Positions 54,001 through 57,000 of a stretch of DNA of 64,000 nucleotides are shown here, in pieces. A program made the position numbers. The DNA is from a virus (Duplodnaviria; Heunggongvirae; Uroviricota; Caudoviricetes), in the IMG/VR virus record IMGVR_UViG_2718218100_000003; one strand, 5' to 3'. Positions within the stretch are counted from its first letter, which is position 1. Each line of letters opens with the position of its first letter.

Positions 54001-57000
54001 TTGATCTGAGCGCTCAGTAAATATCAATACGGTTCTGGCGAGCCGCTTACGATGCATGAGAATCACTAATAGTATGTAATTATTACATTTTATTTACAAT
54101 GCTGTTTCTGTTGGTCTGTATCCATAATTATGAAATGCTGACTTATGGTGTCAAAATAACACATATTCCTTTCAATAATCATTTCTTTTACTATCTTTTC
54201 CCTGCTGAGAGGGTGGGGTAGATGTTCTCTTGTGAGATTCATGAACGCAGACTTATCATAAAGAGTGCATATGTTGGAGTTCAGTGCGTTCTTGACAAAA
54301 ACCCCTTTTTCTGGAACGCATAATGTTATTGGGCACTTAAGAAATTGTGTGTCGCAAGAGAATTCATCAGGATTTACAACAAATGAATGAGAATGGATTT
54401 TATTTTTAAGGGCGTTTTCGGCCCCTTTTTTCCATCCTATATTTGAAGATAATTGAAGCATAAAATCCTGAGATATTTGTGCAAAACTTCGTCCGTTGTT
54501 GATCTGCTGTTCCAGGTTGCGAGCAATAGTGTTTTGTCTCGCCATAAATATGGAGAAATGATTACTGCATACAGGATTTACTGTAAAACCATTGACTGAT
54601 TCGATATAACGGATATCCATTTTATAACGTTCTTTTATGATTACAGTATCATTTTGATTTTGCTGCACAATATAACGTAAAGATGCTAGCTCATTCTCAG
54701 GTAAGATACTGCCTGCTGTGAAGTTTAAAAAGATAGGCATGTTTTTTCTGTAATACAAGTCGATTGTTTGTGATTTCGCGCTGTAGGTATATTATCATTC
54801 ATATTTAACTTCCTAAAGTATGACCTCGTAGGGAGATAAATGCAATGCTTAAAGGTAGATTGAAATGATAAATTAGCGCTTGGTAAATCCAGAATTTCAT
54901 AAAGAGAGAGGTGGTGTTTTTTCATAGCGCTGAGATGTAAGTTGCAACATGTATTATATGCAAGAGAATAGGGAGTACTGGATACATTAACTCTATGTAA
55001 TCCATTCAAGATATTAATGCAATTGAAATAATTGACATAAAATATTGCATAGGTGAGGTTTATTGCTCAGAAGATGGAGTTATCGATGCAGAAACTGGAA
55101 GAACTGCGGCAGCGATAGCGCAGGTCGATTGCAATGACGAGATTTATCAGCGCCAGCGTGGGATAAAAGAGAATCTGAGCAGTCTGGAGAATTTGAAATC
55201 GGTTAGGGATTTCATACTAGAATAATAGGATCCGCGGCACGTCGTATGCAAGAACGTGCCACGGCTGGCTGGCGAACTTTCGATAGTGCGAGTATTGAAT
55301 GATTTCCAGCCGTTACCGATTTTACTATGTTTTCAGTAGAACGCTTAGACAAAACTGAGGCGCACAAAGCTTTGCACTGGATTGCAAGACTTTGTTCTAT
55401 TCGATAGTTTAAGGTCGCTCACTCTACCTTTTCATCAAGCCAGTCCGCCCACCATTGCATCATTTCTCTGCGCTTATCGTGGCAGACGCCTCACTATCAC
55501 ACTGTGATGGTTCATTACTGGTTTGCATAATGGATAGAGAACTGAGGATAAAAGATATCCCAAAACCCCAAAATCTCATCTTTAGGATTTGCAGAAAGGG
55601 AGGCGTAAACAAATACCCGCTCATGAAAACGGAACTAGTCCAGATGTGATGTTTGTGGTTATAACATACATCATCAACGATGCTCGTTATGGTGAGTTTG
55701 ATGACTACCCACTGAAGTGAAAATTGTGTTGTGTACCAAATTGCGTACCAAACTAAAATCACAAATTATGAAACCCTTGTTCATGGCGGCTCTCAGGGGT
55801 GTTGCGCGTAATCGTGAACAAAAAGGTAGATTGTTGCTTACCGTCATTCATCATTAGGTTAAATCCGTTGTTTCTGCTGTCTGCCAGAGTATCAAATATC
55901 ACCGTGCTAATCAGCTTTAGCGCGACAATTTGACAGCGAGTGGCAACAGATCATGTCAGATAAAAATGAGAGGGTAGTCACATTTTCTTGCACTTTATTC
56001 CAGCCAGTTCATAAGTATTTCCGTAAAAAGAACAGCTATTTGAAACTCCTGAGGGTTTGCTGTTGAAACGCCGTCTTATTATTGCTGCTTCTTTGTTCAT
56101 TTTTAACTTATCGTCTGGTTTTGCGGCGGAAAACATTCCTTTTTCACCTCAGCCTCCAGAGATTCATGCCGGCTCCTGGGTATTGATGGATTACACCACC
56201 GGTCAGATCCTCACCGCGGGTAATGAGCATCAACAGCGCAATCCCGCCAGCCTGACAAAGCTGATGACGGGCTATGTCGTGGATCGCGCTATCGATAGTC
56301 ATCGCATTACGCCAGACGATATTGTCACCGTGGGGCGCGATGCGTGGGCGAAAGATAATCCAGTGTTTGTCGGTTCTTCACTGATGTTTTTGAAAGAGGG
56401 CGATCGCGTATCGGTACGTGATTTAAGCCGTGGTTTAATTGTGGATTCCGGAAATGACGCTTGTGTTGCACTGGCTGACTATATTGCCGGTGGGCAACGG
56501 CAGTTTGTTGAAATGATGAACAACTATGCCGAGAAGCTGCATCTCAAGGATACGCATTTTGAAACAGTGCATGGTCTGGATGCACCAGGTCAGCATAGCT
56601 CGGCTTATGATTTAGCTGTGCTTTCTCGCGCTATCATCCACGGCGAGCCCGAGTTTTATCATATGTACAGTGAGAAAAGTCTCACCTGGAACGGTATCAC
56701 CCAGCAAAACCGTAACGGGTTATTGTGGGATAAAACCATGAATGTTGACGGCCTGAAAACGGGTCATACTTCTGGTGCCGGGTTTAATCTCATTGCTTCG
56801 GCTGTAGATGGGCAGCGTCGTCTCATTGCAGTGGTAATGGGGGCTGACAGTGCAAAAGGTCGTGAGGAAGAGGCAAGAAAATTACTGCGTTGGGGGCAAC
56901 AAAACTTTACTACGGTGCAAATTTTGCACCGTGGGAAAAAGGTCGGTACGGAACGCATCTGGTATGGCGATAAAGAAAATATCGCCCTGGGAACGGAACA

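What the first reader, a model, noticed from the sequence alone, without database searches (positions are those of the whole stretch)
55760..55860. Prophage integrated in the first codons of sbcB; attR junction
Minus-strand sequence 55854 to about 55810 encodes MMNDGKQQSTFLF, the start of exonuclease I, divergent from dacD as in the host; it then runs into phage-side sequence and stops. The rest of sbcB must lie beyond int, left of the window, so the insertion separates the sbcB promoter and start from the body of the gene and may inactivate it unless the attL side supplies an alternative start.
Basis: partly seen in the sequence, partly recalled or inferred. Interest (0 to 1): 0.5.

Follow-up and report, generated by a model that had tools for sequence, protein, structure and literature searches.

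The report
Stx2c prophage attR junction in sbcB
This is the already well-documented right-hand junction of a Shiga-toxin-2c phage inserted into the start of the E. coli exonuclease I gene; the phage brings its own replacement gene start, so the gene stays intact at the other junction, and the only unusual detail is a one-base deletion in the junction's core sequence.

Summary
Window 55854→55816 (minus strand) is the native sbcB start, MMNDGKQQSTFLF, divergent from dacD. Host homology ends at 55807. This is attR of a phage 2851/1717-type Stx2c-converting lambdoid prophage. Its published 13-bp core, CGTAATCGTGAAA, covers sbcB codons 13-17, including catalytic Asp15.

attL lies about 1.4 kb left of the window. 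In the nearest relatives, which are 100% identical over window 1-9000, the phage supplies ATG plus 10 further codons upstream of the core. sbcB there is annotated as an intact 474-aa hybrid (MTDTDKQPTFLFHDYETF…) and scores as an exonuclease I equivalog. Expression of the hybrid is not shown.

The window's core has 12 of 13 bases, with one A/T missing. Among 5426 complete E. coli genomes the attR T-run is:
- T3 in about 454
- T2 in 4
- T4 in 22

These variants occur on at least three phage-arm haplotypes. The attL copy is T3 in all 579 genomes that have it. Two empty O157-like sites carry T4 and a frameshifted sbcB, which looks like excision scars. Curing this prophage would therefore probably leave sbcB frameshifted.

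The core finding is already known and of low interest.

The parts
55807..55818 (.). attR core. The + strand reads CGTAATCGTGAA, which is 12 of the 13 bp of the phage-2851-type core CGTAATCGTGAAA. One A is missing (one T of the TTT Phe13 codon in the sbcB sense).
   Evidence: Alignment of attB, attP, attL and attR. The core is annotated as a 13-bp duplication or attP in phage 1717 and mEp234 and is published (PMC4159516). The deletion is shown against the closest genome.
55816..55854 (-). Orphaned native sbcB 5' end, codons 1-13 (MMNDGKQQSTFLF). The last codon overlaps the core.
55759..55854 (-). Remnant ORF of 31 codons plus a stop. It starts at the native sbcB ATG and runs into the phage P' arm. 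It is a by-product of the junction and the 1-nt deletion, and no function is implied.
   Evidence: It has no family match.
55855..56056 (.). sbcB-dacD divergent intergenic region. It holds the native sbcB upstream (promoter) region, which now drives only the remnant.
   Evidence: It is identical in organisation to K-12. The consensus promoter scan found no site here, so the scan is insensitive for this region.
56057..57229 (+). dacD, the host gene flanking attR. The coordinates are those of the mechanical ORF; RefSeq relatives annotate 1167 nt ending at the same stop.
55730..55752 (-). Two tandem arm-type repeats, TTTGGTACAC and TTTGGTACGC, at + strand 55730-55740 and 55742-55752. They lie in the P' arm, 55-88 bp from the core, and are probable integrase arm-binding sites.
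   Evidence: These are the only two TTGGTACRC matches in the 64-kb window. Three more copies lie in the P arm at attL and attP. The integrase has an Arm DNA-binding domain, PF13356. Binding itself is inferred.
1..55806 (+). Stx2c-converting lambdoid prophage, all except its leftmost approximately 1373 bp. The missing part is attL, the sbcB-like 5' end and most of int. Total length is about 57.2 kb.
   Evidence: The P' arm is 99.2-100% identical to phages 2851, 1717 and Stx2_WGPS8. The left end is 100% identical to O157 lysogens.
1..20 (+). Last 20 nt of the tyrosine integrase gene. The rest of the gene lies left of the window.
   Evidence: Window 1 corresponds to L006 4001, and int is L006 2842-4020. 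The Pfam hits are PF13356 and PF00589.
1..192 (-). Small helix-turn-helix gene overlapping the int 3' end; a likely excisionase.
   Evidence: It is annotated as an HTH regulator in relatives and as similar to the excisionase of phage 24B in the mEp234 record. The AlpA and HTH_17 Pfam hits are weak and below the cut-off.
21325..22565 (+). stx2A (21325-22284) and stx2B (22296-22565). The B subunit has Asn16 and Ala24 of the mature chain, the Stx2c signature as I recall it from memory.
   Evidence: All 74 Stx2c phages studied in O157 sit in sbcB (PMC4645166).

Best explanation
Window 55807-55818 is the attR junction of a roughly 57-kb Stx2c-converting lambdoid prophage of the phage 2851/1717 type.

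How integration works. The phage's tyrosine integrase has an arm-binding domain and recognises five TTTGGTACRC-type arm repeats in attP. It recombines a 13-bp core (sbcB sense TTTCACGATTACG) in attP with the identical sequence in sbcB codons 13-17. That sequence encodes Phe13-His14-Asp15-Tyr16 and the first base of Glu17, so it sits on the catalytic DxE motif of exonuclease I.

What each junction holds. At attL the phage places its own upstream DNA, an ATG and 10 further sbcB-like codons in frame with the core (Phe, the 12th codon) and the gene body. The result is an intact 474-aa hybrid ExoI, MTDTDKQPTFLF followed by host HDYETF….

Consequences. sbcB is therefore re-headed and not destroyed. 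The stranded attR copy is no longer under selection. In this window it has lost one T from the core's T-run.

Shown versus inferred.
- Shown: the junction anatomy, the core, the arms, and the intact hybrid ORF in relatives.
- Inferred: that this genome's own attL is the same, that the hybrid is transcribed from phage-supplied DNA, and that the arm repeats bind Int.
For: Host side and junction position:
- The host side is identical to K-12 and the boundary is at 55807.
- A six-way alignment of attB, attP, attL and attR shows the reciprocal chimeras around the 13-bp core.

Match to known phages:
- The P' arm is 99.2-100% identical to phages 2851, 1717 and Stx2_WGPS8.
- It is about 95% identical to mEp234, whose record annotates this very sequence as 'attP type 2851'.
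- The core and sbcB integration are published (PMC4159516; PMC4645166).

attL in relatives:
- In four O157 lysogens sbcB is annotated as an intact 1425-nt gene, WP_000132546.1. One of them is 100% identical to window 1-9000.
- One further lysogen, an E. coli found in the genome-collection scan, has the same 474-aa ORF.
- The hybrid is 98% identical to K-12 ExoI. It differs at the N-terminus only in residues 2-9.
- It scores 814 bits against the NCBIfam exodeoxyribonuclease I equivalog, whose cut-off is 260.
- The exact protein has been seen on at least 1000 contigs.
- The in-frame attL junction is present in 579 of 5426 complete genomes. No +1 or -1 variant was found.

Other support:
- The phage-borne codons for Phe and Leu differ from the host's only synonymously: TTC CTC against TTT TTG.
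- Asp15 and Glu17 are metal ligands of ExoI (PMC3675492).
- Integrase domains are given and the arm repeats.
- stx2c identification rests.
Against: - The attL junction of this particular genome is outside the window, so its state is inferred from relatives.
- The stringent scan found no sigma-70 consensus promoter upstream of the hybrid start. A relaxed scan found only weak candidates such as TGGACA-19-TATATT. The same scans also miss the native sbcB promoter, so they say little either way.
- The core here is 12 of 13 bp, not the canonical sequence.
- Known attP copies show too little diversity (five attP copies: four IMG/VR contigs plus mEp234, one non-synonymous variant) to demonstrate purifying selection on the phage-borne codons.
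Confidence: 0.93

Rival explanations
1. The insertion functionally silences sbcB even though the ORF is intact. The native promoter is left at attR, and the 181-bp phage spacer between the hybrid start and the divergent int gene may not drive adequate transcription or translation. On this view Stx2c lysogens are ExoI-deficient or ExoI-low.
For: - The native upstream region is physically separated from the gene body.
- There is no strong promoter consensus and no obvious Shine-Dalgarno sequence before the phage-supplied ATG.
- The literature usually describes the site as 'disrupted' or 'occupied' (PMC8309913).
Against: - The native gene also lacks a recognisable consensus promoter and a strong SD sequence, so the scans are uninformative.
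- The attL T-run is in frame in 579 of 579 genomes. The orphan attR copy of the same core carries ±1 indels in 26 of about 480 genomes. That pattern is expected if the hybrid reading frame is under selection. The 5' sequence context differs between the two junctions and the genomes are clonally related, so this is suggestive only.
- The phage-borne segment preserves the TFLF strand residues through synonymous codons.
Confidence: 0.2
2. The missing T in the window's attR core is a sequencing or assembly error in a short homopolymer, and the real junction is the canonical 13-bp core.
For: - The closest complete genome, AUSMDU00002545, is 99.9% identical over window 44000-60000 and has TTT.
- That pairwise comparison also shows other single-base indels that look like assembly noise, for example at 52032, where the relative's tail-fibre gene is annotated as frameshifted.
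Against: - The same run varies (T2, T3, T4) in assemblies submitted by several different groups and countries, on three P' arm haplotypes.
- At empty attB sites the sequence is identical for more than 23 nt upstream and through the core, yet only 2 of about 4934 genomes vary, against 26 of about 480 at attR. A chemistry artefact should affect both equally.
Confidence: 0.2
3. The sbcB fragment is a pseudogene remnant left by a deletion or an IS-mediated rearrangement, not a site-specific att junction.
For: IS629/IS1203 copies are active in these prophages.
Against: - The breakpoint coincides to the base with a published 13-bp core.
- Reciprocal attL junctions and intact attP sites exist.
- There are no IS ends at the junction.
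Confidence: 0.01

Closest known systems
Enterobacteria phage 2851 and Stx2-converting phage 1717 (prototype Stx2c phages of E. coli O157:H7, integrated in sbcB)
   Same: - The same integration site and 13-bp core.
- The P' arm is 99.2% identical over 516 nt.
- The same int/xis-side organisation in relatives.
- stx2c with an upstream tRNA trio, and nleG7 cargo next to attR.
- A similar length: about 57.2 kb here against 57,248 bp for phage 2851.
   Different: - The window's attR core lacks one T, giving 12 of 13 bp.
- There are four SNPs in the P' arm relative to 1717.
- An IS629/IS1203 copy lies at 16331-17642.
- The ORF upstream of nleG7 is 876 nt here. The gene annotated 'effector Ibe' at that position in phage 1717 is 606 nt.
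Sf101, mEp234, HK544, HK140 (non-Stx lambdoid/P22-like phages with the 'type 2851' int-attP module)
   Same: - The same 13-bp attP, the same sbcB-like 5' segment and the same arm repeats.
- Sf101 was experimentally shown to integrate at the 5' end of sbcB (PMC4159516).
   Different: - The rest of the genome is unrelated or mosaic, with no stx.
- The P' arm is 88-95% identical.
- Some of these phages retain an intact UmuD/S24-peptidase gene where the window has a decayed remnant.
Phages that insert inside a gene and carry a replacement end, such as phage 21 and e14 in icd, and many tRNA-targeting integrases (from established knowledge; Campbell's review of chromosomal insertion sites)
   Same: The principle is the same. 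attP contains a diverged copy of the gene segment it displaces, so one junction regenerates a complete gene and the other keeps an orphan fragment.
   Different: Those cases replace the 3' end, so the native promoter stays with the gene. Here the 5' end is replaced, so the phage must also supply the start codon and the transcription and translation signals. That arrangement is less common and is not verified here.

Membership tests
Phage 2851-type (sbcB-targeting) integration module: attR junction | The 13-bp core CGTAATCGTGAAA lies at the host/phage boundary. | tested here: met
   55807-55818 reads CGTAATCGTGAA, 12 of 13 bp, with one base of the terminal A-run deleted. The register and both flanks are otherwise exact. 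This is a variant of the core, not a different core.
Phage 2851-type (sbcB-targeting) integration module: attR junction | The host flank is sbcB codons 1-13 plus the sbcB-dacD intergenic region. | tested here: met
   The flank is identical to K-12 and O157 sequence.
Phage 2851-type (sbcB-targeting) integration module: attR junction | The phage flank is homologous to the P' arm of attP in phages 2851, 1717 and mEp234. | tested here: met
   Identity is 99.2-100% to Stx2c phages and 94.8% to mEp234 over about 510 nt.
Phage 2851-type (sbcB-targeting) integration module: attR junction | A cognate tyrosine integrase lies next to attL, and attL regenerates an in-frame hybrid sbcB. | not testable with these tools
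   Only the last 20 nt of int are inside the window. In relatives that are 98-100% identical to the window's left end, int (392 aa; PF13356 and PF00589) and the 474-aa hybrid sbcB are present. The source genome's own attL could not be read.
Phage 2851-type (sbcB-targeting) integration module: attR junction | Arm-type repeats flank the core. | tested here: met
   There are two TTGGTACRC copies at 55731-55751, the only ones in the 64-kb window. Three more lie on the P arm. Protein binding was not tested.
Stx2c-converting prophage | It has a stx2A/stx2B operon of subtype c downstream of the Q region and tRNA genes. | tested here: met
   stx2A is at 21325-22284. stx2B is at 22296-22565 and has N16 and A24 in the mature chain. 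The tRNA-Met, Arg and Arg genes are at 20989-21232. The subtype call rests on residues recalled from memory, not on a typing tool.

The most novel reading that the evidence does not exclude
The stranded native sbcB 5' fragment at attR decays while the prophage is resident. Its T-run at the edge of the att core has changed length at least five times independently: T2 and T4 on haplotype A, T2 and T4 on haplotype B, and T2 on haplotype C. Variants make up about 5% of lysogens, whereas the attL copy never varies.

Int/Xis crossover lies 3' of that run, so precise excision hands the decayed run back to the chromosome and restores a frameshifted sbcB. Two empty-site O157-like genomes, strain 319 and CEC13004, are intact except for T4 at exactly this position. 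They would then be such scars.

On this reading the window's T2 prophage is a 'one-way' insertion. Losing the Stx2c phage would cost the cell exonuclease I, which couples prophage retention to a host DNA-repair and anti-phage-defence-relevant nuclease.
Probability: 0.4. Interest if true: 0.4.

Novelty: already known. Interest (0 to 1): 0.15.

Why it matters
The junction itself is a standard typing landmark for O157:H7, where sbcB occupancy marks an Stx2c phage, and it adds nothing new.

Two points are worth passing on.
- 'Occupied' does not mean 'disrupted'. The phage re-heads sbcB, and about 11% of complete E. coli genomes (579 of 5426) carry this hybrid ExoI. Phenotypes attributed to ExoI in such strains run on a phage-supplied start and upstream region. 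These phenotypes include recombineering efficiency, suppression of recBC defects, and the recently proposed control of DRT10 defence by SbcB in the bioRxiv preprint 10.64898/2026.04.29.721553.
- The orphan copy at attR drifts. In this window it would leave a -1 frameshift in sbcB if the prophage were cured. Anyone making Stx-cured derivatives or interpreting stx-negative O157 isolates should take this into account.

Tried and rejected
- Consensus promoter and terminator scans at attL and attR and a relaxed hexamer scan. They gave no decisive promoter for either the native or the hybrid sbcB, so they cannot settle expression.
- An IMG/VR scan for attP diversity, intended to test selection on the phage-borne sbcB codons. 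Of 35 sites examined (34 IMG/VR contigs plus mEp234), 30 were attR junctions and only five were attP (four IMG/VR contigs plus mEp234). The attP copies were nearly invariant, with one D3G variant, so this is too little for a selection test.
- A scan of one genome per species for a native sbcB encoding DKQPTFLFHDYET, to find the donor of the phage-borne 5' end. The only hit was an E. coli lysogen, so the origin is unresolved.
- An attempt to read Strauch et al. 2008, the original phage 2851 paper, by DOI and by a guessed PMC id. It is not held, so its content is cited only through PMC4159516 and PMC7175801.
- An attempt to identify the exact source genome. No complete RefSeq E. coli genome matches the window fully. 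The best is AUSMDU00002545 at 99.9%, with an extra IS in gpJ and a TTT core. The three genomes that share the exact 38-mer with the deletion differ by about 1% in the tail region.
- The idea that the deletion is shared by descent with ATCC 43889, 2010C-3142 and CEC13002. I rejected it because they carry a different P' arm haplotype.

Full report
**1. The observation**

On the minus strand from 55854 the window reads ATG ATG AAT GAC GGT AAG CAA CAA TCT ACC TTT TTG TT…, which translates to MMNDGKQQSTFLF.
- This sequence, the 200-bp upstream region and the divergent dacD gene are the same as in K-12.
- I searched window 55300-56300 against 5426 complete E. coli genomes and 5417 matched.
- In genomes annotated with an uninterrupted sbcB-dacD pair the match begins at query base 508, which is window 55807.
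- 483 genomes match across the whole query, phage side included.

One detail needs correcting. Identity to sbcB continues ten bases past the Phe13 codon (CACGATTACG) to 55807. It is out of frame there because one T is missing.

**2. What it is**

Left of 55807 the sequence is 99.2-100% identical to the right ends of Stx2c-converting phages 2851, 1717 and Stx2_WGPS8. It is about 95% identical to the virion-derived genome of mEp234, where the same 13 bp are annotated 'prophage attachment site (type 2851)'.

A six-way alignment of attB (K-12), attP (mEp234), attR (window and phage 1717) and attL (AUSMDU00002545 and phage 1717) shows the expected reciprocal chimeras around TTTCACGATTACG.
- All 74 Stx2c phages examined in O157 sit in sbcB (PMC4645166).

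The window's prophage carries:
- stx2A at 21325-22284;
- stx2B at 22296-22565, with N16 and A24 in the mature B chain, which I recall as the Stx2c signature;
- a tRNA Met-Arg-Arg trio upstream of the toxin genes.

**3. The other junction**

The window starts 20 nt before the end of int.
- AUSMDU00002545 is 100% identical over window 1-9000.
- Strain 4276 is 99% identical over the left end.
- 2010C-3142 and CEC13002 are 98-99% identical there.
- In all four, the region left of the window is int (392 aa), a 181-bp spacer, and a divergent sbcB annotated as an intact 1425-nt gene, WP_000132546.1.

The sequence shows how this arises. attP carries ATG ACA GAC ACA GAT AAA CAA CCT ACC TTC CTC immediately upstream of the core. 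attL therefore reads MTDTDKQPTFLF-HDYETFG…, where K-12 reads MMNDGKQQSTFLF-HDYETFG….

Properties of the hybrid:
- At the N-terminus it differs from K-12 ExoI only in residues 2-9, and it is 98% identical overall.
- It scores 814 bits against the NCBIfam exodeoxyribonuclease I equivalog, whose cut-off is 260.
- The exact protein is on record from at least 1000 contigs, including a UniProt entry with the organism code ECO5C.
- The phage's Phe and Leu codons are synonymous variants of the host's. This suggests descent from a real sbcB or constraint on the segment.

The core covers codons Phe13-His14-Asp15-Tyr16 and the first base of Glu17. Asp15 and Glu17 are metal-binding residues of ExoI (PMC3675492). 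The phage therefore targets the most constrained part of the gene and keeps it intact.

**4. Recombination machinery**

- The integrase of the relatives has an arm-DNA-binding domain (PF13356) and a tyrosine-recombinase catalytic domain (PF00589).
- attP holds five copies of a TTTGGTACRC-type repeat, all in one orientation. Two are on the P' arm, at window 55730-55740 and 55742-55752, and these are the only TTGGTACRC matches in 64 kb. Three are on the P arm. I infer that they are arm-type Int sites.
- A 63-aa helix-turn-helix gene at window 1-192 (minus strand) is the likely excisionase. The domain evidence for that is weak.

**5. Is sbcB inactivated?**

At the level of the ORF it is not inactivated in any relative I examined.

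Expression is not shown.
- The stringent promoter scan finds nothing upstream of the hybrid start. It also finds nothing upstream of the native start.
- A relaxed scan gives only weak candidates in both places.

Indirect support for function comes from the indel comparison in section 6.

**6. The one unusual feature**

The window's attR core has TT where the canonical core has TTT.

I used 38-mers designed so that every 28-nt seed spans the run and both flanks. The counts among 5426 complete genomes are:

| Site | T2 | T3 | T4 |
|---|---|---|---|
| attR | 4 | about 454 | 22 |
| attL | 0 | 579 | 0 |
| empty attB | 0 | not counted; about 4934 empty sites estimated | 2 |

The variants sit on different P' arm haplotypes:
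- Haplotype A (window-like): T2 in the window; T3 in AUSMDU00002545; T4 in 2571, 350 and Z1834.
- Haplotype B (1717-like): T2 in ATCC 43889, 2010C-3142 and CEC13002; T3 in phage 1717; T4 in E32511.
- Haplotype C (a P22-like prophage in strain 2013C-4081): T2.

That makes at least five independent events.

The 5' context (TTTTTGTTT) and the core are identical at attR and at empty attB. A sequencing artefact should hit both equally. The observed rates are 26 of about 480 at attR against 2 of about 4934 at attB (Fisher p of about 1e-25). The genomes are clonally related, so this p-value is overstated.

The simplest reading is relaxed selection on the orphan fragment at a slippage-prone run, with the functional copies at attB and attL kept in frame.

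The two empty sites with T4 are in strain 319 (UK) and CEC13004 (Japan).
- Both have the O157-type dacD protein, WP_001303036.1, that the O157 lysogens have.
- In both, sbcB is annotated 'frameshifted', and removing that single T restores a full 475-codon frame.
- They look like scars left when a T4-attR prophage excised.
- If so, the crossover lies 3' of the run, and curing the window's prophage would leave a -1 frameshift in sbcB.
- Loss of Stx2c phages from sbcB is documented (PMC7175801).

This chain of reasoning is inference. Spontaneous +1 mutation at an empty site is the alternative.

**7. Comparison with known systems, and novelty**

The element is a member of the phage 2851/1717 family of Stx2c prophages, and the int-attP module is shared with Sf101, mEp234 and HK544.

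The principle of carrying a replacement gene end in attP is classical. From memory, examples are phage 21 and e14 in icd and many tRNA-site phages. Those replace the 3' end, whereas this one replaces the 5' end together with the start codon.

The finding as stated is already known. The T-run polymorphism and the putative excision scars did not turn up in the papers I could search. They are a modest addition.

**8. Verdict**

- Observation: confirmed.
- Novelty: already known.
- Interest: low, 0.15.

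Noticed in passing
window 55816-55818 (T-run at the edge of the attR core); related loci L008, L010, L046-L052: The T-run at the sbcB-proximal edge of the att core varies in length at attR only. Among 5426 complete E. coli genomes it is T2 in 4, T3 in about 454 and T4 in 22. The variants occur on at least three P' arm haplotypes, which implies at least five independent events. The attL copy is T3 in 579 of 579 genomes.
   Followed up: yes
L053 2478-3906 (strain 319, UK) and L054 2478-3906 (CEC13004, Japan): These two O157-like genomes have an empty sbcB-dacD site but carry TTTT at exactly the att-core position. sbcB is frameshifted by that single base and is otherwise intact. 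They may be scars of excision of a T4-attR prophage.
   Followed up: partly
window 20989-22565: tRNA-Met, tRNA-Arg(tcg) and tRNA-Arg(tct) genes are followed by stx2A (21325-22284) and stx2B (22296-22565). The B subunit has the Stx2c-type residues N16 and A24.
   Followed up: partly
window 16331-17642: An IS629/IS1203 (IS3-family) copy is inserted in the early-right region among antirepressor-like genes. It is absent at this position in strain 4276, which instead has copies in gam and near the repressor. IS positions differ between otherwise near-identical prophages.
   Followed up: partly
window 52990-53865 (+) and 54090-54758 (-): There are two cargo genes between the tail fibres and attR. 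One is an NleG-family type III effector (PF06416, E=5e-48; annotated nleG7 in relatives). The other is a 291-aa protein with no Pfam or NCBIfam hit. A shorter gene at this position is annotated 'T3SS secreted effector Ibe' in phage 1717.
   Followed up: partly
window about 55466-55716 (+): A decayed UmuD/HumD-like (S24 peptidase) gene remnant lies directly inside attR. It is annotated as a frameshifted pseudogene in relatives, and it is intact in some other phages that use the same att site.
   Followed up: no
window 55616-55633 (-): A terminator-like hairpin followed by a T-rich tail lies about 125 nt downstream of the remnant ORF. It might stop transcripts from the orphaned native sbcB promoter before they reach nleG7. 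It is a single hit against 0.5 expected in shuffles, so it is not significant.
   Followed up: no
window about 60660-63730: The host side carries CP4-44-like island genes: yeeW, cbtA, cbeA at 61130-61498, yeeT, yeeS, an antirestriction gene and a DUF932 gene. cbtA is annotated as frameshifted in relatives, and the window has no ORF of 120 aa or more there.
   Followed up: no
L047 (strain 2013C-4081): A different, P22-like prophage with a tailspike and an O-antigen acyltransferase, like Sf101, occupies the same sbcB site in a genome that lacks the Stx2c-phage cargo genes at this locus. It also has the T2 core. dacD there is truncated, and Mu-like transposase genes follow it.
   Followed up: no
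window 44000-45444: An Arc/Arc/Ant (antirepressor) module is embedded between tail-assembly genes of the late region, according to the annotation of the near-identical AUSMDU00002545 prophage.
   Followed up: no
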